This document shows, piece after piece, positions 11,558-53,398 of a DNA stretch of 64,000 nt. A program made the position numbers and the translations under genes. The notes under the pieces are model-generated. The model saw nothing but the letters and a program-made list of their open reading frames with translations. It was not told where the DNA came from and did no database searches. How positions within the stretch are numbered: the stretch's first letter is position 1; the number at the start of each line of letters is the position of its first letter. Origin of the DNA: Phycisphaerae bacterium (GTDB taxonomy: Bacteria > Planctomycetota > Phycisphaerae > Phycisphaerales > UBA1924); NCBI GenBank assembly GCA_041485385.1, contig JBGPJM010000001.1, forward strand, positions 421 through 64,420, read 5' to 3'.

Positions 11558-12728
11558 TGAGGTTCCGTGAGGTTCGGCGAGGTTCGGCGAGGTTTGGCGA
11601 GGTTTGGCGAGGTTTGGCATGGGTTTTTTGAGGTTCGATGGGGGTTTTCTGAGGTTCGGCGAGGTTTTTTGAGGTTTCGAGAGGTTTTTTGAGATTCATT
11701 TTCGGGGTGTTTTTGATGTAAGTTGTTGTAGCGTGGGGAGTTGTGTTGGTTCGAGGTGGCTTGGTTGGGTCGGGGGCTGAAAATGCATCGCTCGAAAAGA
11801 AGTGAGCAGTAAGCAGTGAGCAGTGAGCAGTGAGCAGAAGAGGGGAGAAGAGGGGCGTGGGGGAGAGGGGACGAGAAGGGTCGAGAGATGTTGAGAAGGG
11901 TCGAGAGTTTTTGAGAAAAGCAGAGAAGGGCGGGGAAGGGTCGAGAGAAGCAGGGCAGGGTTTTTGTGTAAGTGCTTGTGATATTGAGAGTTGTGATTTT
12001 TGAAGTGGTGTTTTTCGCGGCGAGGGGATTGAGTTTCTCGGGGTTTTTGGGTGATTTTTGAGGGTCGGCGCGGCGGCGTGATCGCTGCAAGTTGCTTTCT
12101 GCAAAGCACGTGTGTTGATGCCTGGCTGATTGGACGCGGTTCTGAAATTCGTGTGCTCCTGGGATGGGGAGGCGTTGAGGCGTGGGGGCGTGGAGGCGTT
12201 CAGACGTGGGGCGGGCGCGGAGCGTGCGCGCGACGTCTCTCTACCCATGGGCCGTCGGTCCTGTTTGCGCGCGCAGAATGGGAATCGGCGGGGGTCGAAT
12301 CGCGTAAGTGCTTGTGGCGCAAGGAGAAGAAAATTTTGAGGTTTGCGCTTTTGCGCGCGCCGGGCGCGCCTGTTCTGCGCGCGCAAACTGGCTCCACCGT
12401 TCAGGGGGGCTGGTTGCCGCGGTGGCCGCGGGTGCCCAGATGGCCGCGGGTGGGCGGGGTGGGGTGGTGTGATGCGCACAGCCTGCGACTTCCGTCGTGG
12501 AGATGACGACTCGCTGCGCATCGTGGCTCGTGGGGTGCGTCCGCGGTTGATTGGGGACCGGATGCGGGGCGGTGGCCGCGCTCCTCTCGAGAGGCAGAGG
12601 GCATAGCCCCGACCTCGACGCCCGCGCGATCGCGGACGCACCGGACGAGCCCCCGCGGACCGCGTCCCCGCGCTCCGCCCGCCCGCTGCGCGAGGCGGCT
12701 CGTCGGGTACGGTCCCCGCGAAATTCAG
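11558..12728 (+). repeat. Copy A of a ~1.15-kb non-coding G+T-skewed element
   Basis: Aligns end to end with 52257-53398 in the same orientation, with many substitutions and small indels. Contains (GAGGTTYGGC)x6 at 11559-11618, (GTGAGCA)x5 at 11802-11836, phased T-tracts and a conserved core at 12263-12388. No believable protein in any frame. Confidence 0.85.
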
Positions 12729-13051
12729 GGTGGGACCGGTGAACGGGGCGAGCCGTTCGGTTGGACCGCGAAGTGCGGCAAGAACAATTTCAGGAATCGC
12801 GCAAGGAAGCTGCCCGAGCACAGCACAGGCTTCCAGGACGCCGGCCCGCGCTCCTGCCGGCCCGCCGACGAGCTCCTCGCCACGAAGCACGCGGGCGCGG
12901 GCCGGACCAAGGGCGCGGCCTTCGGCCCGGCTCGCGAACCGGGCGAGCCCCTCAAGGCCGAGTGCCTGCGTCGGCGGGCGGCGGAAGCACCGCGACCTTT
13001 CGCCGCCGCCCCGCACTCCGGGCAGGGCTCTCCGCGCCGATGCCGCGGCGG

Positions 13052-15694
13052 TCAGGGGCAACCGGCGAAGAACGCCGGAAGGAAGTCGAAGAAGTCCTGA
13101 GCCGTGGTCATGCCGTCGGCGTTGAAGTCGGCGCGGCCGGCGAAGAACGCGTTCAGGAAGTCGAAGAAGTCCTGTGAGTTGGCGGAGCCGTCGTTGTTGA
13201 AGTCGGCGGGGCAGGGGCTGTTGGAGCAAGCGCCGGGCGTCGCGGCGGGCGTGAGGCTGAACGACCTGGGACTGGGAGGGAAGAGCGAGTCGGAGGGGAT
13301 CTGCAGGGTGTCAAGTCCCTGAGAGTCCTTCAGTCCGACGGTGACATCGGACGTGTCGCCTGGGAAACCGCTGAACGTGCTGCGGTCGTCGAGTTCGGCG
13401 TAGCGGAGTTCGATGCGGTTCGAGCTTTCGAAGAGCACGACCTGGAAGGTGTCCGTACCGTCAAACCAGCCGCCGGGCATGTGTTGCCATGAGGCGATGA
13501 ATCGGCGGGAGCCGGGGATGCCGTCGGTGCGGACATACATGGCACCGCCGATCGGATACAGATCATCCCAGAGGGCGAAGATGGCGTTGTTGGGCGGGGT
13601 GGAGTAGAACCGATTGGTGTTCTGGGCCACGCCCAGCGGCTGGTTGCCGAAGGCGAGATAGCCGTTGTCGCCGATGCCGATGCTGGTGTAGCGGCGGCCG
13701 TAGAACTCAAACTCAAAGCCGATGTCGACGGATCGACCGGTGTTGTTGGCCAGCACGATCGGAGTGCCATCGGCGGAAATATCTTCAAAGGGTGCATCGG
13801 CCTCGGCTTGTGTGTAGGCGGCGCTGGGGCAGACGGTGTTCTCGCCGGAGAATCGGCCGAACTGGGCGGCGCAGTCGGCGGCGGTGGTCAGCGAGCAGCC
13901 GTTCTGCGTGCAGCAGGCGCCCAGTGGCTGCGAATCGATCGTCAGGATGTAGCGTGTGGGTAGCGCGCAGGGCCAGTCCCAGAAGAGACCCGAGTTGTTG
14001 CCGGAATCCGGGAAGACGAGCACGCCGAAACGCCCGGCGGGCAGTGTGAATGAAAGGCTGGCAGGGCCGGCGCAGCGAGTGAGTTCCAAATCGTTGGCGA
14101 TCACCTCGGCCGGGCAGGTGTCGGACATCAGCAGGACGCGCACGGGGAACTCGGCGGTCACGTTGATCGTGACGAAGGCGGGGTGGTCGAGCGTGCAACG
14201 GTACCAGTCGAAGTCGCGTCTGCCGCCGTTGGCATAACTGGAACCCCAGACAGTGATGTTGGGCGAGGGCAGGTCCTGGAAGAGCGGCGGGTCGCCTGGG
14301 GCGTAACCCCTGCAGCCGTAGTTGTTCTGCTGGCCGCATAATTCGGGCTCGATGAATGCGCCGGCGGGCTGGGTGAGGCAGGGGAGGATCGGCGCCGAGG
14401 TGCTGAGGGTAAGGGTGCCGGTGCCGGAGTCGCCGCCATCGCCGGCGATGCGAACAAGGTAACTGCGCCCGGCGATCGCGTTGAACCGGGCATCCATGCG
14501 GCCTCCGCAACTGATCCCGTTGATGAAGCGAAGGACCGATCGGGAGCAGACGAGTTCCGTGTCGGTGGCCTGGTCGATCACCGACATGACGCCGTCGTAG
14601 AGATACCCCCCGCCAGTTGCGCAGGAGACGAGAGTGACGAGGTTGTCGACCGACGCCTGATAGACGAACCAAATGTCATTGGCAGTGAACCCGCCGCCGC
14701 CGTCGCAGGTGGACGAGCCGTCCGTGAGCGCCCCGCGGGTGGTGAACGGGTTGGCACCTTCAACCAGCGGGGCGGCGTTGGCTCGCAGATCGTTGGGCGG
14801 CGGCTGGACGATCGTGACGGACAACTCGCCCATGTAGCCGTTTGGAAGGGGAACGCCTTCTGAATGGCCCGCCGTGCTCGACGCTACGCGGAGAAGCACG
14901 ACTTGGCCAATGGTGACGGGCAAGGAAAGCGAAGCCTGCGATGCGCACGCGAACGGGGATGAGCCGCACGAGTCGAACGCGGCAGTCGTCCATCCGCCGC
15001 TCACTATCGCAACACCGGACGCGGCGGCCGTGTACCTGAACCAAACATCCCTCACGCCGCCAAAGGTATCCGAACCGCAGGGAGCACTGATCTCGGTGGC
15101 CGCGGCGAGGCTGCTGAAGGCAAGGGGTGTGTCGGCGAAGAGGTCGATCGCATCGACGCACACGTCATTAGCGGGCGGAGGCAGCATCGTAATCGTGAAG
15201 GTGCCGATGACGGAAGATGGACCGACCGGGCCGTTCGTAGGTCCGCCGATGCGGATGAGGATGCTCTGGCCTTCGGAAACGTTGACGTACACCTGCGAGA
15301 TGACACAGAATGGGTTGGAGGAACCATCGTCGCCGACGGGATCGCACGCCAGTTCCGTGCCGCCGCAGGATGACTGGACAGTCAGTGTTGCAGCGTTGTA
15401 CCAATAGTCAGGCTCGAATGGGGTGCTGCAGGCGACGATCCAGGCCGCTCCCGCCGAGGGGGCGGTGAAACTGAACCAGACGTCTCCGCGAACGTCGCCG
15501 CCGGGGCTGTTGGCGGCAACGCACGGCCAGGGATCGGCGCTGCGCGTGGCGGTGGTGGTGTCGAACGCCTCCTCGGTGTCGATCACGACGGGAATCGCAC
15601 CCGAACACTCGTCGTTGGCGGGTTGCGCCCGCACCGACGTCTCGATGAATAGCAGGGACGCACACCCAACAAGGACGGAGCAACAACATCGCAT
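13052..15694 (-). CDS. Large secreted protein with PxNDxC-initiated modules and a C-terminal double dockerin-like (GC-type) tag
   Basis: ORF 13052..15742. Probable start is M17 (MRCCCSVLVGCASLLFIETSVRAQ, signal peptide). At least three modules begin PANDEC / PPANDVC / PPPNDLR. A NIDO-like IGDNGYLAFGN segment follows. The C-terminus is [53 protein letters not shown]. Confidence 0.85.
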   Translation of the reverse strand: MRCCCSVLVGCASLLFIETSVRAQPANDECSGAIPVVIDTEEAFDTTTATRSADPWPCVAANSPGGDVRGDVWFSFTAPSAGAAWIVACSTPFEPDYWYNAATLTVQSSCGGTELACDPVGDDGSSNPFCVISQVYVNVSEGQSILIRIGGPTNGPVGPSSVIGTFTITMLPPPANDVCVDAIDLFADTPLAFSSLAAATEISAPCGSDTFGGVRDVWFRYTAAASGVAIVSGGWTTAAFDSCGSSPFACASQASLSLPVTIGQVVLLRVASSTAGHSEGVPLPNGYMGELSVTIVQPPPNDLRANAAPLVEGANPFTTRGALTDGSSTCDGGGGFTANDIWFVYQASVDNLVTLVSCATGGGYLYDGVMSVIDQATDTELVCSRSVLRFINGISCGGRMDARFNAIAGRSYLVRIAGDGGDSGTGTLTLSTSAPILPCLTQPAGAFIEPELCGQQNNYGCRGYAPGDPPLFQDLPSPNITVWGSSYANGGRRDFDWYRCTLDHPAFVTINVTAEFPVRVLLMSDTCPAEVIANDLELTRCAGPASLSFTLPAGRFGVLVFPDSGNNSGLFWDWPCALPTRYILTIDSQPLGACCTQNGCSLTTAADCAAQFGRFSGENTVCPSAAYTQAEADAPFEDISADGTPIVLANNTGRSVDIGFEFEFYGRRYTSIGIGDNGYLAFGNQPLGVAQNTNRFYSTPPNNAIFALWDDLYPIGGAMYVRTDGIPGSRRFIASWQHMPGGWFDGTDTFQVVLFESSNRIELRYAELDDRSTFSGFPGDTSDVTVGLKDSQGLDTLQIPSDSLFPPSPRSFSLTPAATPGACSNSPCPADFNNDGSANSQDFFDFLNAFFAGRADFNADGMTTAQDFFDFLPAFFAGCP

Positions 15695-15698
15695 CGTT

Positions 15699-15760
15699 TG
15701 ACTTGGCATTCTGTTCACCTCACGAAAAAGCCGACATGACACGCGTGTCCCCGCCCGGCT
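15699..15760 (-). promoter_or_regulatory. Conserved 62-nt leader/promoter box, copy 1
   Basis: Almost identical to 17117-17179. Gene-sense sequence is AGCCGGGCGGGGACACGCGTGTCATGTCGGCTTTTTCGTGAGGTGAACAGAATGCCAAGTCAA. Contains the perfect 12-bp palindrome GACACGCGTGTC (15738-15749). Confidence 0.6.
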
Positions 15761-15767
15761 GAGAACA

Positions 15768-15797
15768 CCCGCGCGATGGCGTCAACCATCGCGCGGG
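15768..15797 (-). terminator. Strong hairpin after the 15820..17028 gene
   Basis: cccgcgcgatgg / cgtcaa / ccatcgcgcggg gives a perfect 12-bp GC-rich stem with a 6-nt loop, 23 nt downstream of the stop. No obvious U-tract. Confidence 0.5.
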
Positions 15798-15819
15798 CGT
15801 GTGCTGCGTAAGTCGGCTC

Positions 15820-17028
15820 CTACGGGCAGGGAGCGAAGAACGCACCGAGGAAGTCGAAGAAATCCTGGGAGTTGATGATCGAGTCGTGGTTGAAGTCGGC
15901 GCTCGGGTTACCGGCAAAGAAGGCGGCGAGGAAGTCGAAGAAGTCGCCTGAGTTCGCGATGCCGTCTTGGTTGAAATCCGCCGCGCAGAAGAGCGGCCGC
16001 GTCCAGAGCAGGGCTTCGGTGTAACCCGTCAGCGAGTTGGTGCCGAAGCCCGCGACATAGAGGTTCGTGCCATCGCTGGAAAGCCCCGATGCTCGACTCT
16101 CCGTGAACCCGGCGGGGAGGAAAACGTGGAGATCGACCCAGGAGTCCGCCGTGCCGCTCCACAGGCTGGCGTGGGCCGCGCCGCCCACAAATGCACTCCC
16201 CGCCTGCTGCCCGCCGCTGATGGCAATGGCGTAGGAACTGGTCAAGCCCGCCGGGCCGAGACTGACCCACGAGTCCGCCGTGCCGCTCCACAGGCTGGCG
16301 ACGGTCACGCTGCCGCCGTCCCAGGCATACCCCACCTGCTGCCCGCCGCTGCCGCCAAAGACTTCGGACCACACCGCGCCCGCCGGGTTGAGATCGACCC
16401 ACGAGTCCGCCGTCCCGCTCCACAGGCTGGCGTGGTAATCGGCAAAGTCGCCCACAGCGGCATACCCCGCCTGCCGCCCGCCGCTGGCGACCCGGGCCAT
16501 GGACTCGTATTCGCCCGCCGGGTGGAGATCGACCCACGAGGCCGCCGTCCCGCTCCACAGGCTGGCGCGGTACTGGTCATCCACAGAGACATACCCCACC
16601 TGCTGCCCGTCGCCGACGCCAAGGGCTTCGGACTCCGGCGATCCCGCCGGGTTGAGATCGACCCACGAGGCCGCCGTGCCGCTCCACAGGCTAGCGCGGA
16701 CCGCGCCGTCCACAATGGCAACCCCCACCTGCTGCCCGCCGCTGGCCGCGGTGGCAAAGGACAACGCCGAGCCGGCCGGGTTGAGATCGACCCACGAGGC
16801 CGCCGTGCCGCTCCACAGGCTGGCGCGGTACACGCCGCCCACGGTGGCACCTCCCGCCTGCTGACCGCCGCTGGCGGCACGGGCATCGCAGTGCGTCGAG
16901 CCCGCCGGGTTAAGTCTGGCCACGGTCCACTGGGCGTGGGCCGTTGAGGCGAGCATGACACTCGCGAGCGCAGGCAGCGCTGCCATGATGGTGTTTCGGA
17001 TGGTATTTCGAATGTATGTCACGTTCAT
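15820..17028 (-). CDS. Secreted HAF-like repeat protein with C-terminal double dockerin-like tag
   Basis: ORF 15820..17064. I prefer the ATG at 17028 (MNVTYIRNTIRNTIMAALPALASVMLASTAHA), preceded by GGAGGAG. About eight repeats of ...GGQQ(V/A)G...ASLWSGTA(A/D)SWVDLNPAG.... C-terminus is [55 protein letters not shown]. Confidence 0.85.
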   Translation of the reverse strand: MNVTYIRNTIRNTIMAALPALASVMLASTAHAQWTVARLNPAGSTHCDARAASGGQQAGGATVGGVYRASLWSGTAASWVDLNPAGSALSFATAASGGQQVGVAIVDGAVRASLWSGTAASWVDLNPAGSPESEALGVGDGQQVGYVSVDDQYRASLWSGTAASWVDLHPAGEYESMARVASGGRQAGYAAVGDFADYHASLWSGTADSWVDLNPAGAVWSEVFGGSGGQQVGYAWDGGSVTVASLWSGTADSWVSLGPAGLTSSYAIAISGGQQAGSAFVGGAAHASLWSGTADSWVDLHVFLPAGFTESRASGLSSDGTNLYVAGFGTNSLTGYTEALLWTRPLFCAADFNQDGIANSGDFFDFLAAFFAGNPSADFNHDSIINSQDFFDFLGAFFAPCP

Positions 17029-17116
17029 TACTCCTCCAGGCTTGTTGTTCCGTCCCGGGACCATGCCATTTTCTCGCGATCAACTGCCGAGGTGTCGCAC
17101 AATCGCGCTCTTGCGC

Positions 17117-17179
17117 TTGACTTGGCATTCTGTTCACCTCACGAAGAGCCGACATGACACGTGTGATTCCCGCCCGGCT
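17117..17179 (-). promoter_or_regulatory. Conserved 62-nt leader/promoter box, copy 2
   Basis: ttgacttggcattctgttcacctcacgaagagccgacatgacacgtgtgattcccgcccggct. Differs from copy 1 at only a few positions. Palindromic core is ACACGTGT. Lies about 90 nt upstream of the ATG at 17028. Confidence 0.6.
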
Positions 17180-17297
17180 ACGCCGCCGGAACGTTCAGAC
17201 TCCAGCATGACTCCGTTCCGTGCGGCCGCCCGGACGACATTGCCGACCACGAACGTGGGCGGCGCCCCTTGCCAGGAGCGCGGGGCGAGCAAGCAGG

Positions 17298-17317
17298 TTC
17301 GATGCTCACGCATCGAA
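17298..17317 (-). terminator. Hairpin downstream of the kinase gene
   Basis: ttcgatgc / tcac / gcatcgaa gives a perfect 8-bp stem with a 4-nt loop, about 145 nt after the kinase stop at 17461. Confidence 0.3.
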
Positions 17318-17460
17318 TGGCGGTGGACACCAGGACGCGGATCGCCGCAGTGTGTCTGTCACACTCCTACAGGCGACGCCGGCGATGGCGGGGGATCAAA
17401 CAACGTCAAGATCGTCGCCTGATTGGAGATATTTCTCCCGTCAGGTCGAGCTGTGCCGGC

Positions 17461-20400
17461 TCACGGCATCGGCAACTTGGACCGCCACTGGGCGGCCTTG
17501 AGGGCGTGTCCCTGCTCCGGGTCGGACCGGTCCCAAGCTTCGTAGAACGCGGCGAGGCGCTCGATGGAGGCGTTGAGCTGCGGGCTGGCGGGCGGGGCAT
17601 CGCCGGCGTCGGCTGGGGGCGCCAACCGTTCGCACGCTTCGACGAGCAGGGCCTCGGCCTGGGGCATCTCGGCTCGGGCCGTGCGATACTCGGCGAGGTT
17701 GAACAGATCGCGGGTGATATCCGGATGGCTGCGCGGCTGGAGGCGTCGGCGCATGCCCAGAGCTTCCTCGAATTGGGCCAGGGCCAGCTCGTCCTTCCCG
17801 AGAGCCCGGAGACAACCCGCCACACCCGCGAGGCTCTGGGCCGTGTCCACCTGATCTCCGGGCGCGATTCGCCGGCGCATCGCCAGGGCCTGCTCGTATC
17901 GGCCCAGGGCCTCCGCCGGTTCTCTCATCGATTCGTAGCAGGCGCCGATGTGTTCGAGAGTCGATGCGGCGTCGGCGCTGTCGGGGCTGGCGAGGTGCTG
18001 GAAGATCTCGAGGGCATGCTCGTGTGCCTCGATCGCCTTCGACGGGTTCTTAAGTTTCGTCAGACAGTCGGCCATCCGGTTGGTCATCTGGGCCGTGTGG
18101 ATGCGGTAGGGCTCGCCGAGACGTTGGGCGATGTCGCGTGCCTCGGTGAATCGGTCGAGCGCGTCCTGGAAGTGTTCGAGGGACAGCAGGCACAAGGCGG
18201 TGTTCATCAGGTCGTAGGAGATGTTGATGTGGTCGCCGTCGTAGTAGCCGCGCCAGAACGTCAGCGCCTGGTCGTACTTGTCGAACCCATCCTGGAAGCT
18301 GCCCATGCCCTGGAAGCAGTAGCCCATGCAGTCGAATGTCGCGGCTTCCCGCTCGCTCCTGCCGGGCCAGGCGCGGTGGCACAACTCCAGGGCGGTCCGG
18401 TACTTGGCCATCGCGTCGTCCCGCCGGTTGAACGCCTCGAGGGTTCTGCCAAGTTCGAAGAGGCTTGTGATCGCGGCGCGAGGGTCCTGCTCGACCAGGC
18501 GTGCCCGCATCGCCGCGCCGGCCTCGAGGCTCTCGATCGCCTTGTCTTCGCGACCCAGGCGCCTGTAGACGGCGCCGAGCTCTGTCAAGCCTTCTGCAAC
18601 CCATGGATCATCTCCGGGGCGTGCGCTCTTGCGCCTGGCCAACTCCTGCTGCATCATGAGCAGCGCCTCGTCGGGGCTGCCCAGTGCGATGAGGCTTCTG
18701 GACTCCTGGTGCAGCATCAACGTGGTGTTCAGGCTGGGACCGGGACAGAAGAGCTGTTGCATGCAGCGGGCGGCGTGCGACGTTGCCAGGGACTCGTCGT
18801 ATTGACGATTGCTCCACAGGCAGATCGCTTGATTGGAGAGCGCTGCCGCGAGGTTCAGGTTTCCACCCGGGAACAGACGATGGAACATGGAAACGGCCAC
18901 TTCGTACTCGACCAGCGCGTCGGCTGTTCGCGTGAGATCTTTGAGGCAGTCGGCCACGACCCTATGGCCCTGCGCGACAGCCGCGTGATCCCCGGGGTGG
19001 AGGCGTTGCGCCATCGCGAGAGCCTCGCTGTAGAGCGGAAGCGCCTGGTTGGGCGGGACGCACCAGCCGATGGCTTCCAGACTCTTCACGATGCGATCAT
19101 CGTCGCCTGTGCATTCGCGCCGTCGGATCTCGAGCGAGCGCCGCAGCAGCGGGAGCGCCTCACCGGACATCTCGCGGGAACGGAGCACGAGGCCCAGCTC
19201 GTACATCACGCCGGCGGCCTCCAAACTTCCGGGACCATCGCCGGCGCTGGCGAGCTCCAGAGCCCGGCGGAGCATCCGGTCGGACCTCTCCCACTCGGCG
19301 ATGCCCCGGTACACGCTGCCGATCATGAACCGGAGCCGCCATTCTTCCTCCGGCGCCGCGGAGAGTTCCCCGGCATCAATGCGGGCGGCGGCGGCGTCCA
19401 TCATCTCCTGCAACATCCTGGTGTCGCGCCCGAGAGCCACCGACGGGCCGACGCCGGCAAACACCTCCCCCATGAACTGCCCGACCCCTTCGGCGCGGTG
19501 ACGCGCGGCCGCCTCCTTGACGAGCGCCGCCTCTTTGGCGTCGTTCTTGTATTTCGCCTGCACGAGGCCGTACGTCGCCAGCCCCAGCCCCAGCACCAGC
19601 GCGCCAAGCACCGCGGAACCCGCGAGGAAGACGCCGAGGTTCCGCCGCACCAGCTTTCCCAGCCGGTACACGGTGCTGGGAGGGCCGGCCAGCACCGGCT
19701 CGTCGCACAGGTACCGCTGCACCTCCATCGCCAGACCGTTGGCCGTCTCGTAGCGGCGGGTGCGGTCCTTCTCCAGGCACTTCATCACGATCCAGTCCAG
19801 CTCGCCGCGCACCAGCCTGCCGATCCTTGAAGGCTCCGTCCGGCGATTCGTCGCCACCCGCGCGAGCGCATCTCCCAACGTGCTCAGGCGCGTGCTGGGA
19901 GTAGGTGGCTCCTCCTCCCGGATCATCCGCTGCATCTCCGCCCACGCCGCGGAACGGAGCCGCTTGGGGTCCAGCGGCGTCGTCCCGGTGAGCAGTTCGT
20001 ACAACAGCACTCCCAGGCTGAAGATGTCGCTGCGCGTGTCGATGTCCACGCCGGTCATCTCCGCCTGCTCCGGGCTCATGTACTCGGGCGTGCCGATGAG
20101 CTGGCGGTGCTCGGTGAAGAGCGTCTTCTCCGTGAGGCGTGCGGAGGTCGCCTTGGCGATCCCGAAGTCGATCACCTTCGGGATCGGCTTGCCGTCGGAC
20201 ACGGTTACCAGCACGTTGCCCGGCTTGATGTCCCGGTGGATGACCCCTTTCTGGTGCGAGTGCTGCACGGCGTTGCACACCTGCGCGAACAGCTCCAGGC
20301 GCTCGCGGGTGCTGAGGCTGTTCGTATCGCAATACTCCGTCACCGGCTCTCCGCGCACCAGCTCCATCACGAAATAGGGGCGCCCCGTAGGCGTCGCTCC

Positions 20401-20877
20401 GGCATCAAGAACCCTGGCAATATTCGGGTGGTCCATGAGGGCCAGGGCCTGGCGCTCCTGCTCGAAGCGGGCGACGACCTGCCCGGTGTCCATCCCCAGC
20501 TTGATGATCTTCAGCGCCACCCGCCGCCGTACGGGCTGCTCCTGTTCCGCCAGGAAAACGGCTCCGAAGCCGCCCTCCCCGATGAGCTGGAGCAGCTTGT
20601 AGGGTCCGATCCGGGCGCCGGGCCCCTCTCTGAGCGGCCCCATGGCGGTCGACGTCGACAGCTCGGATCCTTCACCAGCCGGCAGCGCGTTCCCCGCCGT
20701 CGGCGAGGCCATGAAGTCTCCCGCCCTTGCCCCGGCCGCCAGCAACCCCAGCACGCGCTGCAGGAGTTCGGCGTCGTTCGCGCACTCGGCGCGCACAAAC
20801 GCCTCTCTCGCCCCCGGCGGTTGCTCCATCGCCTCGCCGAAGATCCGCTCCATTTGCCGCAGCTTGGTCCCGGCCAT
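17461..20877 (-). CDS. Ser/Thr protein kinase with transmembrane helix and long TPR domain
   Basis: 1138 aa. Kinase motifs [34 protein letters not shown] and SPEQ. One TM helix ([23 protein letters not shown]), then about 700 aa of TPR-like repeats. Confidence 0.92.
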
Positions 20878-20887
20878 GGCCGCCCTT

Positions 20888-21502
20888 CTAGGACTCCCCC
20901 GCGTCGCGCTCGGCGCCCTCCTGGTCTCCCAACTCCTGGAACAGCAACGCCCGCGCGAACGCCCACCGCCGCTTCACCGTCGCCGGCGACAACCCAAGCG
21001 CCGCCGCGGTCGTTTCCACGTCCAGGCCGGCATAGAACCGCAGCCGTACCACCCATGCCAGCTCGGTGTCCTGCATCTCCAGGCGACGCACCGCCTCGTC
21101 GAGGCTCAGGATCGCGTCGGAATCCAGCTCCGCGGCCAGGTCCACCACACACAACGGCACGCGACGCGCCGGGGATCCATGACTGTCGCCGCCCCGTTTC
21201 ATCCGCCCGCGCGCTCGCGCATGCTCGATCAGGATTCGGCGCATCGCCTCGGCGGCGGCCGTGTAAAAATGAGCCCTGCCCGACCACTGGGGCTCGCCGC
21301 CGCCGACCAGGCGCAGATAGGCCTCGTGGACCAGCGCGGTGGCCTGCAGCGTGTGGCCCGCACGCTCCTGCGCCATCCGCTCCTGGGCAATGGCACGGAG
21401 CTGACCATACACGAGCGGGAGAAGGTCGGCTGCGGCCTGGACATCACCCCCCGCGACCCGTTGCAGCAGCCGCGTTGCCGGTGTAGTTGAGTTCCCGGGC
21501 AT
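20888..21502 (-). CDS. ECF-type RNA polymerase sigma factor (PF07638 / ECF43-like)
   Basis: 204 aa. [41 protein letters not shown]...[20 protein letters not shown] is the hallmark N-terminal region of this family. Lies 10 nt upstream of the kinase gene. Confidence 0.9.
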
Positions 21503-21701
21503 GCAGGCAGCATAGGGCCCCGCACGCTTCGAATGCGTCGGCCGCCAACGGCGCGATGAACTTCGGCCGGGAGTCGCCGTGCATCTCGCGGCACTCGTCG
21601 TAGATGACGACGTGGCCGCTGGTCGGGGGCGAGCCGGTCGGAACGTTCAGAACCTCGTGGTTCGTCCACCGAACATGCCCAAAAACGTCCGAAAACCGCA
21701 T
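21444..21701 (-). CDS. Candidate small protein (85 aa) overlapping the sigma-gene start
   Basis: Tail of ORF 21444..22385 from the ATG at 21701. [68 protein letters not shown] has normal amino-acid composition and mostly G/C third positions. No family recognised. Overlaps the sigma ORF by 59 nt. Confidence 0.3.
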   Translation of the reverse strand: MRFSDVFGHVRWTNHEVLNVPTGSPPTSGHVVIYDECREMHGDSRPKFIAPLAADAFEACGALCCLHARELNYTGNAAAATGRGG

Positions 21702-21845
21702 GGTATTACCCGATTCGGGCGCGCAGGAAGGGCCCACCCCCATCCCATATCCCGCATTCCGCAAGGTCTCCCTGAAGTCCCCCGGCCTCCCGGCCGATCC
21801 CCTCGGGTTGCTCGACACGCAGCACCTCAAGCCCCGGAGCCTCAC

Positions 21846-22271
21846 ATGACCAGCCTCTTGACCCTCGCGCAGAATGCCGCCTCGTCGGGCGGCAGCCCCG
21901 TCGTCCTCGTCATCCAGCTCGCCGTCGTCATCCTGACGATCGCGGGCCTGTGGAAGGTTTTCGAGAAGGCCGGCCAGCCCGGATGGGCCGCGATCGTCCC
22001 GGTCTATAACCTGTTTATTCTCTGCAAACTGGCCGGCAAACCCGCCTGGTGGGTGGTGCTGTTCCTCGTCCCCGTCGTGAACCTGATCGCGCTGGCGGTG
22101 GTCTCGATGGAGGTCGCCAAGGCCTTCGGCAAGACCGCCGCGTTCGGCGTCGGCCTCTTCCTGCTGGGCTTCATCTTCTACCCCATGCTGGCCTTCACCG
22201 ATGCGCAGTACCGGGCGCCGGGCGCGCCGGCGAGTCCCGCGGCCGATGCCCGCACCCGTGCGGCGGCCTGA
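21846..22271 (+). CDS. DUF5684-family small membrane protein
   Basis: Internal ATG (M90) of ORF 21579..22271. IAGLWKVFEKAGQPGWAAIVPVYNLFILCKLAGKPAWWVVLFLVPVVNLIALAVVSMEVAKAFGKTAAFGVGLFLLGFIFYPMLAF is the characteristic DUF5684 pattern. Confidence 0.8.
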   Translation: MTSLLTLAQNAASSGGSPVVLVIQLAVVILTIAGLWKVFEKAGQPGWAAIVPVYNLFILCKLAGKPAWWVVLFLVPVVNLIALAVVSMEVAKAFGKTAAFGVGLFLLGFIFYPMLAFTDAQYRAPGAPASPAADARTRAAA

Positions 22272-51565: not shown

Positions 51566-52167
51566 CAGGAATCTTCGGGGTCGCCGTCGCCCTGGAGCTT
51601 GCGGACCTCGCGCCTGAGCCAGGCGCGGGCGTAGGTCCACTCGGTCTTTACAGTAGTAAGGGAGAGTCCCAGCGCGGCGGCGGTCTGTTCGATGCTGAGG
51701 CCGGCGAAGTAGCGGAGGTGGACGATCTCGGCCTTGCGCGGGTCGCGGGCCTCGAGGAGCTTGAGGGCCTCGTCGAGGGAGATGAGGTCCTCGGGGGTCT
51801 GGGTATCGCCGACGGCCTCCACATCCCAATCGACGCGCTGCCGCCCGCCGCCGTGCTTGAGGCGGGCGCGGCGACGGGCGCGCTCGACGAGGATGCGTCG
51901 CATGGCCAGGGCGGCGGCGCCGTAGAAGTGGCCGCGGGAGCGCCACTGGGCGTTGGGATCGGCGACGAGGCGGAGGTAGGCCTCGTGGACGAGCGCGGTG
52001 GGCTGGAGGGTGTGGCCGGAGGATTCGCGCGCGAACTGGTTGCGGGCGAGGCGGCGGAGCTCGGCGTAGACCAAGGGCAGGAGCTGCTCGGGCGCAGTGG
52101 GATCGCCGCCGGCGGCGCTGACCAGCAATCGAGTGACGTCCTGGTGTGCGGTTGAGGAGGTCGGCAT
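51565..52167 (-). CDS. ECF-type sigma factor (PF07638 / ECF43-like), paralogue 2
   Basis: The last 200 aa of ORF 51565..53433 starting [68 protein letters not shown]. The upstream 422 codons are read-through of the repeat element. Confidence 0.9.
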   Translation of the reverse strand: MPTSSTAHQDVTRLLVSAAGGDPTAPEQLLPLVYAELRRLARNQFARESSGHTLQPTALVHEAYLRLVADPNAQWRSRGHFYGAAALAMRRILVERARRRARLKHGGGRQRVDWDVEAVGDTQTPEDLISLDEALKLLEARDPRKAEIVHLRYFAGLSIEQTAAALGLSLTTVKTEWTYARAWLRREVRKLQGDGDPEDS

Positions 52168-52256: not shown

Positions 52257-53398
52257 GAGGTTTCGTGAGGTTCGGCGAGGTTATTTGAGGTTCGGGGTGG
52301 GTTTTTTGAGGTTCGATGGGGGTTTTTTGAGGTTCGGCGAGGTTTTTTGAGGTTTTTGGGGGTTTTTTGAGGTTCGTTTTGGGGGTGTTTTTGATGTAAG
52401 TTGTTGTGGCGTAGTGAGTTATGTCTGTTAGCGGTTGCTTGGTTCGGGGTGGGACCTGAAATGCATCTCTCGAAGAGAAGTAAGCAGTGAGCAGAGAGCA
52501 GTAAGCAGTGAGCAGAAGAGAAGACGGGCGTGGGGGGACAGGGGACGAGAAGGGTCGAGAGATTTCGAGAAAGGTCGAGAGTTTTTGAGAAAAGCAGAGA
52601 AGGGCGGGGAAGGGTCGAGAAAAGCAGGGCAAGTTTTTCATGTAAGTGCTTGTGTTATCGATAGTTGTGACCTTTGATGGGGTGTTTTTCGCGAAGAGGG
52701 GGGGGGTCGGTTTCTCGGGGTTTTTGGGTGGTTTTTGAGGGTCGGCGCGGCGGCGGCGTCGCTGCAAGTGGCTTTCTGCAAAGCACTTGCGTTGAGGCTC
52801 GGCTGATGGGGTGCGAGTCTGAAATTCGGGTGCTCCTGGGCAGGGTTTCGGACCGGACGTTCGCCCCCCCTCCCGTCGGGCGCAGCGTGCGCGCGACGTC
52901 CCTCTACCTATGGGCCATCGGCCCTGTTTGCGCGCGCAGAATGGGAAATCGGCGGGGGTCGAATCGCGTAAGTGCTTGTGGCGCAAGGAGAAGAAAATTG
53001 TGAGGTTTGCGCTTTTGCGCGCGCCGGGCGCGCCTGTTCTGCGCGCGCAAGCGCGCTCCACCGTTCGGGGGAGTTGGTTGCCGCGGTGGCCGCGGGTGCC
53101 CAGATCGCCGCGGTGCGTGTGACGATGCGCTGCCCGCCCCCCGATCGTTCGCCCACCCCTCGCTCGCGCGTCGGGTTCGTCAGGCGTCCGCGGTGATCGG
53201 GGACCGGATGCGGGGCGGCGGCCGCACTCCTCTCGATCGGCGGGAGACGTATCCCGAATCTCGGCGCCCGAGCGATCGCGGGCGCACCTGACGAGCCACT
53301 CAGGCGGCGTCCCCCGTCCCCGCGTCCCTCCGTCGGCGCACGCTCCCCCCCGCCCGCTGCGCGAGGCGGCTCGTTGGAACGATCCCCGCGAGTTCAGC
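52257..53398 (+). repeat. Copy B of the ~1.15-kb non-coding G+T-skewed element
   Basis: Collinear with 11558-12728: same tandem words, the same GTAAGTGCTTGTG boxes, and the same core at 52926-53052. Confidence 0.85.

What the first reader, a model, noticed from the sequence alone, without database searches (positions are those of the whole stretch)
15699..15760. 62-nt leader/promoter box shared by two adjacent dockerin-tagged surface-protein genes
15699-15760 and 17117-17179 are almost identical, while the surrounding non-coding and coding DNA is unrelated. Gene-sense sequence is AGCCGGGCGGG-(GA/AATC)-CACRYGTGTCATGTCGGCT-(TTT/C)-TTCGTGAGGTGAACAGAATGCCAAGTCAA. Copy 1 carries a perfect 12-bp palindrome GACACGCGTGTC, and copy 2 carries the core ACACGTGT (an E-box-like CACGTG). 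The box is preceded in copy 1 by a strong terminator-like hairpin (15768-15797), so each gene appears to have its own copy of the control element. The ATG inside the box is in frame with the gene in copy 1 but out of frame in copy 2 (ORF 16910..17155), so the conservation is not coding. Because the ECF sigma/kinase cassette lies immediately upstream, the box is a candidate target promoter for that sigma factor or an operator for an unidentified dimeric regulator. I could not find the same box upstream of the sigma genes or of the third dockerin-tagged gene.
Basis: partly seen in the sequence, partly recalled or inferred. Interest (0 to 1): 0.6.

Follow-up and report, generated by a model that had tools for sequence, protein, structure and literature searches.

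The report
Duplicated gene-start module, two copies only
Two neighbouring surface-protein genes of an uncultured planctomycete are each preceded by the same ~65-base stretch, whose second half is a ribosome-binding site plus start codon; it occurs nowhere else and is most simply a locally duplicated gene-start (leader/promoter) module, an ordinary kind of event, with no evidence that it is a sigma-factor target.

Summary
Window 15695-15760 and 17114-17179 (minus strand) are about 91-95% identical, depending on how the two 1-nt indels are counted, and their flanks are unrelated. These are the only two copies in the 5.05-Mb genome. Nothing similar turned up in 400 genomes of the same family, the GTDB species genomes, metagenome contigs, plasmids, phages or Rfam.

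The 3' half is a strong Shine-Dalgarno (GAGGTG), 6 nt, then ATG. In copy 1 that ATG starts the 885-aa dockerin gene. In copy 2 it sits 100 nt upstream of the 402-aa gene's own SD/ATG and opens only a non-coding-looking, out-of-frame 72-codon ORF.

The box RNA is less structured than shuffled controls and is AT-richer than the genome. Each copy begins 2-5 nt after a strong GC hairpin. I found no housekeeping -10 and no ECF-type -35/-10 with workable geometry. The palindrome is not kept in register between the copies. Only 2 of at least 150 dockerin genes carry the box.

Best reading: a lineage-specific local duplication of a leader/RBS (possibly promoter) module, arranged box-gene2-box. This matches the "putative mobile promoter" class. 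ECF43 promoter, operator and RNA-target readings remain possible but unsupported. Interest is low.

The parts
15695..15760 (-). Box copy 1 (66 nt). It ends exactly at a second in-frame ATG (15692-15694).
17114..17179 (-). Box copy 2 (66 nt), 1419 bp upstream of copy 1 in gene sense. It lies 89-151 nt upstream of the gene 2 start codon.
15707..15721 (-). SD GAGGTG (15716-15721), a 6-nt spacer, then ATG (15707-15709). This is the likely start of gene 1 (MPSQTMRCCCSVLVGCASLLFIETSVRA|QP, a signal peptide).
   Evidence: The same SD-ATG string serves as RBS and start of unrelated genes in metagenomes.
17126..17140 (-). The same SD (17135-17140) and ATG (17126-17128) in copy 2. This ATG is not the gene 2 start.
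16910..17128 (-). 72-codon ORF opened by the copy-2 ATG. It is out of frame with gene 2, runs across the gene 2 SD/ATG and ends 118 nt inside gene 2. It shows no coding composition (GC3 0.52 against about 0.85 in real genes).
15738..15749 (.). 12-bp perfect palindrome GACACGCGTGTC in copy 1.
17157..17164 (.). 8-bp palindrome ACACGTGT in copy 2. Its axis is shifted relative to the flanking conserved blocks.
15765..15800 (-). Hairpin with a 16-bp GC stem and 4-nt loop, after the gene 2 stop codon and 4 nt before box 1. It looks like a terminator but has no U-tract.
   Evidence: z = -3.5 for the 136-nt context; makes no terminator call
17182..17226 (-). Imperfect GC hairpin ending 2 nt before box 2. 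In the predicted fold an outer 8-bp helix pairs box positions 4-11 (CCGGGCGG) with 17230-17237. Copy 1 has an analogous predicted helix formed with non-homologous upstream sequence.
13052..15709 (-). Gene 1: an 885-aa secreted protein with GBD_T9SS_assoc domains and a C-terminal GC-type dockerin.
15820..17028 (-). Gene 2: a 402-aa secreted repeat protein (ASLWSGTA.SWVDLNPAG repeats) with a GC-type dockerin. It has its own SD (GGAGGAG) and ATG at 17028. It belongs to a large multi-copy family.
17461..20877 (-). Ser/Thr protein kinase (Pkinase) with TPR_12 repeats, 1138 aa.
20888..21502 (-). ECF43-type sigma factor (TIGR02999, PF07638). Its sigma2.2 region reads [11 protein letters not shown], the QTTA-type motif carrying the phospho-acceptor Thr in place of DAED.
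   Evidence: papers PMC13147305 and PMC8999054

Best explanation
The box is a gene-start module. It consists of about 40 nt of relatively AT-rich, unstructured leader, a strong Shine-Dalgarno (GAGGTG), a 6-nt spacer, ATG and four codons. It exists in two copies because of a local, lineage-specific duplication or recombination that produced the arrangement box-gene2-box-gene1 (A-B-A).

In copy 1 the module supplies the ribosome-binding site and start codon of the 885-aa dockerin protein. An older-looking in-frame ATG sits exactly at the end of the box.

In copy 2 the same module sits 100 nt upstream of gene 2's own SD/ATG. Its ATG opens only a non-coding-looking, out-of-frame ORF. That ORF is either a fossil or an upstream ORF that ribosomes would read across the gene 2 start.

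Each copy begins 2-5 nt after a strong hairpin. The first ~40 nt may therefore also carry the transcription start signals, making each gene its own unit with the same signals. This is 'promoter/leader reuse', the class called putative mobile promoters.

Shown: two copies only; the RBS geometry; use of the ATG in copy 1; the non-coding status downstream of copy 2; absence from all other genomes searched.

Inferred: the duplication origin; that the ~92% identity reflects common descent and not constraint on 62 separate nucleotides; any promoter activity and co-regulation.
For: - Only two copies in the genome, 1419 bp apart, in the same orientation, flanking one complete gene.
- None in 60 relatives or in 400 family genomes from 138 genera. 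None in GTDB species genomes by two exact patterns, nor in plasmids or phages.
- Metagenome hits to the 20-mer GAGGTGAACAGAATGCCAAG are RBS-plus-ATG of unrelated low-GC genes (MPRGDG...). This shows the 3' half is a generic, strong translation-initiation string.
- The copy-1 ATG is followed by a signal peptide, and homologues align from residues ~17-30 onward.
- Gene 2 homologues align from residue ~13 of the protein that starts at 17028, so gene 2 does not use the box ATG.
- The spacer after copy 2 shows no coding composition in any frame.
- The box is 56-57% GC against 68.7% for the genome. It folds worse than shuffles (z +1.5 to +1.6), as translation-initiation regions typically do.
- The run of 29 identical bases is not significantly long given 5-6 differences (broken-stick P about 0.3, my arithmetic). 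There is thus no sign of differential constraint.
- The genome holds about 29 other short two-copy non-coding repeats. Several are local direct pairs bracketing one gene.
- Another ECF43-kinase locus (C43) carries dockerin-tail fossils in the same intergenic position, so these loci rearrange.
- The published class fits: pairs of about 92% identity over at least 50 nt upstream of unrelated genes (PMC3575422).
Against: - No mechanism for copying exactly 62-66 nt is evident. There is no flanking homology, no transposase or recombinase, and the repeat is too long to be a target-site duplication.
- No recognisable promoter lies in the box. The sigma-70 scan finds none. The genome's enriched -10-like TA(G/C)ACT is absent. 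So the 'promoter' part is pure inference.
- About 7% divergence with completely unrelated flanks could equally reflect selection on a functional element.
- The direction of copying cannot be decided.
Confidence: 0.5

Rival explanations
1. The box, or its first ~40 nt, is the cognate promoter of the adjacent phosphorylation-activated ECF43-type sigma factor. The kinase would then switch on both surface dockerin proteins.
For: - The sigma-kinase cassette is immediately upstream and co-oriented, and the sigma has the ECF43 QATA motif.
- No housekeeping-type -10 lies anywhere on the sense strand of 13.0-22.4 kb outside coding sequence, so an alternative sigma is plausible.
- Each box starts right after a hairpin.
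- All but one of the differences between the copies fall in two short patches (positions 12-17 and 32-35), which could be a spacer and a discriminator.
- One other cassette (C43) is also followed by a co-oriented dockerin gene.
Against: - No AAC/CGT-type -35/-10 pair with a 16-17-nt spacer lies upstream of the SD.
- The one GAAC-N16-CG match overlaps the ATG and would start transcription inside gene 1's signal-peptide codons (sequence).
- No copy lies near the sigma operon or near any of the other ~14 TIGR02999 cassettes or ~150 dockerin genes.
- Dockerin genes are not significantly enriched downstream of the cassettes once this locus is excluded (1 of 4, P = 0.21).
- No ECF43 promoter consensus turned up in the papers I searched.
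Confidence: 0.12
2. The palindrome (GACACGCGTGTC / ACACGTGT) is an operator for a dimeric DNA-binding regulator that co-regulates both genes.
For: - A perfect 12-bp palindrome in a 63-nt sequence has a chance probability of about 1% (my arithmetic).
- Both copies hold a CACG(CG)TG-type dyad.
Against: - The dyad is not conserved in register. The axis shifts +2 nt relative to the upstream block and -1 nt relative to the downstream block.
- Half-site spacing differs by 2 nt, and on the copy-1 axis only 3 of 6 pairs survive in copy 2.
- The palindrome lies in the least conserved part of the box.
- There are no further sites in the genome and no regulator gene in the locus.
Confidence: 0.06
3. The box acts at the RNA level as a shared 5'-leader. 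It could be the target of a trans-acting or cis-antisense small RNA or of an RNA-binding protein. It could also be the single-stranded platform that follows an RNase III-type processing stem, formed by the upstream hairpin plus the box's CCGGGCGG, in a polycistronic sigma-kinase-gene2-gene1 transcript. In copy 2 the upstream ORF would tune gene 2 translation.
For: - The 29-nt perfectly identical stretch covers SD and ATG. An antisense RNA to it would hit both mRNAs.
- In both copies the predicted fold pairs box positions 4-11 with non-homologous sequence upstream of the preceding hairpin. My rough joint chance estimate is about 0.03, but it is post hoc.
- The hairpins lack U-tracts, so read-through is plausible.
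Against: - No Rfam match at E <= 1.
- The box itself is less structured than shuffles.
- There are only two sequences, so covariation cannot be tested.
- There is no conservation outside this genome.
- No promoter-like signal lies on the opposite strand.
Confidence: 0.15
4. Assembly artefact: two strain variants of one locus (box-gene1 and box-gene2) were joined in tandem by the metagenome assembler.
For: - The genome is a 360-contig, 91%-complete assembly rich in repeats.
- Loci holding dockerin genes appear to be variable.
Against: - The two copies differ at 5-6 positions, and each has unique flanks.
- A k-mer collapse would give identical copies or a contig break, not a clean 1.4-kb tandem arrangement with an intact terminator-like hairpin between them.
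Confidence: 0.03

Closest known systems
Putative mobile promoters / promoter reuse in prokaryotes (Matus-Garcia, Nijveen & van Passel 2012; PMC3575422)
   Same: Two highly similar (~92%) upstream stretches of at least 50 nt within one genome, in front of genes whose adjacent coding sequences are unrelated. There is no associated IS element. It is unresolved whether the identity reflects recency or selection.
   Different: - Copy 1 overlaps the RBS and the first codons, whereas the published screen used -150 to -50 only.
- The two copies are neighbours (A-B-A around one gene), not dispersed.
- Promoter activity is unproven.
ECF sigma-factor target promoters (ECF43 group: EcfP/PknT of Vibrio parahaemolyticus, EcfK/PknS of Xanthomonas citri)
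   Same: The locus carries an ECF43-type sigma with the Thr-containing sigma2.2 motif next to a Ser/Thr kinase. Target genes of such sigmas can lie next to the cassette.
   Different: - The box has no bipartite AAC...CGT-type motif with workable geometry.
- The box does not recur at other cassettes.
- No sigma dependence has been shown.
Direct repeats left by recombination or integration (attL/attR-like; for example the tRNA-fragment pair at C320:874-911 / 2306-2343 of this genome)
   Same: Short direct repeats bracket a ~1.4-kb segment that contains one gene.
   Different: - There is no integrase or recombinase and no tRNA or attC-like structure.
- The repeat is a functional RBS/start region.
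- The copies have diverged by about 7%.
Dispersed intergenic repeats with promoter activity (Correia, ERIC, REPIN)
   Same: A short non-coding repeat located in 5' regions.
   Different: Only two copies, no terminal inverted repeats, no dispersal, and weak structure.

Membership tests
Putative mobile promoter (PMP) pair | At least 80% identity over at least 50 nt between upstream regions of two genes in the same genome | tested here: met
   92% over 63 nt and 91% over 66-67 columns
Putative mobile promoter (PMP) pair | Adjacent coding sequences are not paralogous | tested here: met
   No similarity beyond the box in DNA or in translation. The proteins share only the distant C-terminal dockerin tag.
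Putative mobile promoter (PMP) pair | Lies between -150 and -50 of the translation start | tested here: inconclusive
   Copy 2 spans -151 to -89 of ATG 17028. Copy 1 spans -51 to +12 of ATG 15709, overlapping the RBS and start.
Putative mobile promoter (PMP) pair | Actual promoter activity | not testable with these tools
No sigma-70-like site and no TA(G/C)ACT motif.
ECF sigma-dependent promoter | A -35 containing AAC and a -10 of CGT/GTC type, 16-17 nt apart, placed upstream of the 5'-UTR | tested here: not met
   The only GAAC-N16-CG match overlaps the start codon, and its start site would fall inside gene 1's signal-peptide codons (sequence). The motif rule is from general knowledge of ECF promoters.
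ECF sigma-dependent promoter | Recurrence at other regulon members or at the sigma's own operon | tested here: not met
   Two copies only. Nothing is shared with regions downstream of 7 other cassettes.
ECF sigma-dependent promoter | Transcription depends on the sigma factor | not testable with these tools
   Needs reporter assays or in-vitro transcription.
Operator of a dimeric regulator | Dyad symmetry kept in register and spacing across sites | tested here: not met
   The axis shifts and the half-site spacing differs between the copies.
Known structured cis-regulatory RNA (Rfam family, riboswitch, attenuator) | Covariance-model match, or a fold more stable than chance | tested here: not met
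   No Rfam match at E <= 1 in 12000-22000. Box z-scores are +1.46 and +1.60.
MITE/REP-type dispersed repeat | Many dispersed copies with terminal inverted repeats or a stable hairpin | tested here: not met
   Two copies. There is only a 5-bp AGCCG/CGGCT complement, and the fold is poor.
ECF43 sigma / Ser-Thr kinase cassette (context, not the box) | A TIGR02999/PF07638 sigma lacking DAED, with a Thr-bearing QTTA-type motif, next to a Hanks kinase and with no anti-sigma | tested here: met
   TIGR02999 at 191.5 bits (cut-off 126). The motif reads [11 protein letters not shown]. The kinase gene starts 10 nt downstream of the sigma gene's stop.

The most novel reading that the evidence does not exclude
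The box is the cognate promoter (or promoter plus operator) of the neighbouring phosphorylation-activated ECF43 sigma factor. If so, a TPR-sensor Ser/Thr kinase would directly switch on two dockerin-anchored surface proteins. That would give the first promoter sequence for a planctomycete ECF43 sigma and a functional link between kinase sensing and the GC-dockerin surface proteome.
Probability: 0.12. Interest if true: 0.5.

Novelty: new member of a known kind. Interest (0 to 1): 0.2.

Why it matters
If the best reading holds, this is one more example of leader/promoter reuse. It is a small illustration of how the very large GC-dockerin gene family of Phycisphaerae-like planctomycetes (at least 150 genes here) is reshuffled and given expression signals. 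It has local annotation value: it fixes the start codon of gene 1 and flags a pseudo-start upstream of gene 2.

It would matter more only if the box proved to be the ECF43 sigma's promoter. No promoter consensus for that sigma group appeared in the papers I searched, and the outputs of these kinase-sigma pairs in planctomycetes are not characterised, as far as I know.

Tried and rejected
- A third or diverged copy in the genome: none. I used BLAST, half-box matching with 2-4 mismatches, and nhmmer --max.
- Conservation in relatives: none in 60 relatives or in 400 family genomes. Two exact-pattern scans of GTDB genomes found nothing.
- The one metagenome scan returned only unrelated RBS-plus-ATG strings of low-GC organisms.
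- Strain-level homologues of gene 2, sought to compare upstream regions: the best hit has only ~60% identity.
- The kinase has no full-length orthologue in relatives because it belongs to a highly multi-copy family, so synteny could not be tested.
- Rfam: no match. RNA structure of the box: weaker than shuffles.
- A sigma-70-type promoter or classical terminator: none.
- I derived a likely housekeeping -10, TA(G/C)ACT, from strand-asymmetric hexamers. It is absent from the box and from the whole locus.
- A shared motif with regions downstream of 7 other ECF43-kinase cassettes: none.
- Enrichment of dockerin genes downstream of the cassettes: not significant without this locus.
- Pseudogene remnants or other similarity in the 442-nt and 141-nt intergenic regions: none.
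- Mobile-element origin: no match in plasmids or phages.
- A coding reading of the 5' half: rejected, because the 1-nt indel shifts the frame between the copies.
- Sigma-54 (-24/-12) on either strand: no GG-N10-GC match of the required form (by eye).

Full report
**1. The observation**

In gene sense (minus strand), window 15698-15760 and 17117-17179 align at 92% over 63 nt. The match extends 3 nt further, to 15695 and 17114. Against the whole 5.05-Mb assembly the second copy scores E = 2e-18. An nhmmer profile of the pair retrieves both at E ~3e-20, and the next hit is at E = 7.

Flanking DNA is unrelated on both sides. All but one of the differences (3 substitutions and two 1-nt indels) lie in the 5' 36 nt; the last is the A/G in the 3-nt extension. 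The 3' 29 nt are identical. With so few differences, a 29-nt clean run is not significant (broken-stick P about 0.3, my arithmetic).

I confirmed the following:
- both palindromes;
- the hairpin ahead of copy 1;
- the frame relations of the two ATGs;
- the ECF sigma / Ser-Thr kinase cassette upstream.

**2. Anatomy**

The locus reads, in gene sense:
- sigma (20888-21502);
- kinase with TPR repeats (17461-20877);
- 235 nt of intergenic sequence;
- imperfect GC hairpin (about 17182-17226);
- box 2;
- 85 nt of spacer;
- gene 2 (15820-17028; 402 aa; repeat protein with GC dockerin; own SD GGAGGAG);
- 16-bp-stem hairpin (15765-15800);
- box 1, which contains the gene 1 SD and ATG;
- gene 1 (13052-15709; 885 aa; GBD_T9SS_assoc domains with GC dockerin).

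The box has three conserved blocks:
- AGCCGGGCGGG;
- CAC(G/A)CGTGTCATGTCGGCT;
- TTCGTGAGGTGAACAGAATGCCAAGTCAA.

The third block is GAGGTG, six bases, then ATG: a textbook ribosome-binding site. The only hits to its 20-mer in the metagenome collection are RBS-plus-ATG of unrelated low-GC genes encoding MPRGDG... proteins.

In copy 1 the ATG is followed by a signal peptide (MPSQTMRCCCSVLVGCASLLFIETSVRA|QP), and homologues align from residues ~17-30 onward. A second in-frame ATG (15692-15694) lies exactly where the box ends. The box therefore looks as if it abuts an older start codon.

In copy 2 the ATG is out of frame with gene 2, whose frame is closed by a TGA at 17080-17082. Homologues of gene 2 align from residue ~13 of the protein that starts at 17028. 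The 100 nt between the box ATG and 17028 show no coding composition in any frame (GC3 0.52-0.62, against 0.81-0.95 in real genes). The 72-codon ORF from the box ATG (16910-17128) is therefore a fossil or, at most, an upstream ORF.

The box is 56-57% GC in a 68.7% GC genome. As RNA it folds worse than dinucleotide shuffles (z +1.46 and +1.60). Both properties are what a translation-initiation region looks like.

**3. Distribution**

There are exactly two copies in the assembly. None was found in:
- 60 relatives;
- 400 genomes of the same family, covering 138 genera;
- GTDB species genomes, by two exact patterns;
- plasmids or phages;
- Rfam.

The box therefore marks 2 of at least 150 dockerin genes and 1 of ~14 cassettes.

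The two copies are adjacent and presumably share one origin. The fact that both precede dockerin genes carries no statistical weight.

**4.

*Promoter.* The sigma-70 scan finds nothing.

From strand-asymmetric hexamers in 1,446 upstream regions I obtained a likely housekeeping -10, TA(G/C)ACT, often preceded by G and without a clear -35. Copy 1 of the box has no TA dinucleotide. On the sense strand of 13.0-22.4 kb, the looser pattern TAnAnT occurs only once, inside gene 2. A housekeeping promoter is therefore not evident anywhere in the locus. This leaves room for an alternative sigma but does not point to the box.

For an ECF-type promoter I looked for an AAC-containing -35 and a CGT/GTC -10, 16-17 nt apart. 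This rule comes from general knowledge of ECF promoters. The only fit is GTGAAC-N16-CG, and it spans the SD and ATG. Its start site would fall inside gene 1's signal-peptide codons, so it cannot serve gene 1.

No promoter consensus for the ECF43 group appeared in the papers I searched.

Regions downstream of seven other ECF43-kinase cassettes share nothing with the box. Dockerin genes follow the kinase co-directionally in 2 of 5 evaluable cassettes. Without this locus the figure is 1 of 4 (P = 0.21).

*Operator.* The dyad is not kept in register. Relative to the flanking conserved blocks the axis moves by +2 and -1 nt. Half-site spacing differs, and the palindrome lies in the most variable patch of the box.

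Both regulatory ideas thus remain possible but have no positive support.

**5. Most likely explanation**

The box is a locally duplicated gene-start module arranged as A-B-A (box-gene2-box).

The phenomenon is known. Nijveen, Matus-Garcia and van Passel catalogued more than 4,000 families, mostly pairs averaging 92% identity over at least 50 nt, upstream of unrelated genes. They left open whether recency or selection explains the identity (PMC3575422).

This genome has about 29 further short two-copy non-coding repeats. They include local direct pairs bracketing a single gene:
- C280, around a PIN-domain gene and just upstream of a gene 2 paralogue;
- C320, a duplicated tRNA 3' fragment;
- C70.

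Another ECF43-kinase locus (C43) carries two dockerin-tail fossils (...[15 protein letters not shown] and ...AFFGGC*) in the corresponding intergenic region. Gene turnover at such loci is therefore real.

I cannot tell which copy is the source. Copy 1 uses the SD and ATG, which suggests gene 1 as the origin. The second ATG at the box boundary suggests instead that the box was added in front of gene 1.

Each box starts 2-5 nt after a hairpin. It is therefore reasonable, though only an inference, that the 5' ~40 nt also carry the transcription start signals, so that the two genes are expressed alike.

**6. A weak RNA-level lead**

In both predicted folds, box positions 4-11 (CCGGGCGG) pair with non-homologous C-rich sequence just 5' of the preceding hairpin. 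This gives a two-tier stem. It could mark a processing site in a read-through transcript. It cannot be tested with two sequences.

**7. Limits**

- There are no genus-level relatives, no strain-level homologues (best ~60% identity) and no full-length kinase orthologue.
- As a result I could check neither assembly support, nor presence/absence polymorphism of gene 2, nor transcript 5' ends.

**8. Verdict**

This is a real, lineage-specific, two-copy repeat whose identifiable content is an RBS and start codon. It is a new member of the known 'reused leader/promoter' kind. The ECF43 promoter reading has a probability of about 0.12. Overall interest is low.

Noticed in passing
window 11558-12728 (and 52257-53391); many contigs of G000: The ~1.15-kb ORF-poor element directly downstream of gene 1 is not a two-copy element. 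blastn against the assembly lists about 70 matching places on more than 55 contigs (73-94% identity), very often at contig ends. It is therefore a high-copy dispersed repeat that fragments the assembly. The second window copy lies just upstream of the second ECF43-type sigma gene (51604-52140, minus strand).
   Followed up: partly
genome-wide upstream regions (G000): The hexamers TAGACT, TACACT, GTACAC and GGTACA are 2- to 4-fold more frequent on the sense strand than on the antisense strand of upstream regions. This suggests a housekeeping -10 of the form gGTA(G/C)ACT with no clear -35.
   Followed up: partly
G000 C43:804-897 and C62:16199-16292: A 94-nt two-copy non-coding repeat (91% identity). 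The C62 copy lies directly after the stop codon of an ECF43-linked Ser/Thr kinase gene. The C43 copy lies upstream of an XdhC-like gene. It contains GGAACATCGTGGTTAGTC...AAAAAACGCGCCGTTT. Its function is unknown.
   Followed up: no
G000 C43:12951-13064 and 13157-13222: Two dockerin C-terminal tail fossils (...[15 protein letters not shown] and ...AFFGGC*) lie in the intergenic region between an ECF43-linked kinase gene and the next dockerin gene. They are evidence of gene turnover at these loci.
   Followed up: partly
G000 C320:874-911 and 2306-2343: A 38-nt tRNA 3'-end fragment is duplicated 1.4 kb apart around one ORF. This resembles the attL/attR sites of a small integrated element.
   Followed up: no
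G000 C280:663-785 and 1552-1676: A 126-nt direct repeat (93% identity) with a GGGGAGAG/CTCTCCCC hairpin brackets a PIN-domain (VapC-like) gene. It sits about 300 nt upstream of a paralogue of gene 2.
   Followed up: no
window 20888-21502 (-): The sigma factor carries [11 protein letters not shown] in region 2.2. This is the Thr-containing QTTA-type motif that replaces the acidic DAED motif in ECF43 sigmas activated by phosphorylation.
   Followed up: partly
window 15692-15694 (-): A second in-frame ATG of gene 1 lies exactly at the 3' boundary of box 1 (MPSQT|MRCCCS...). The box may have been placed in front of an older start codon, extending the signal peptide by five residues.
   Followed up: no
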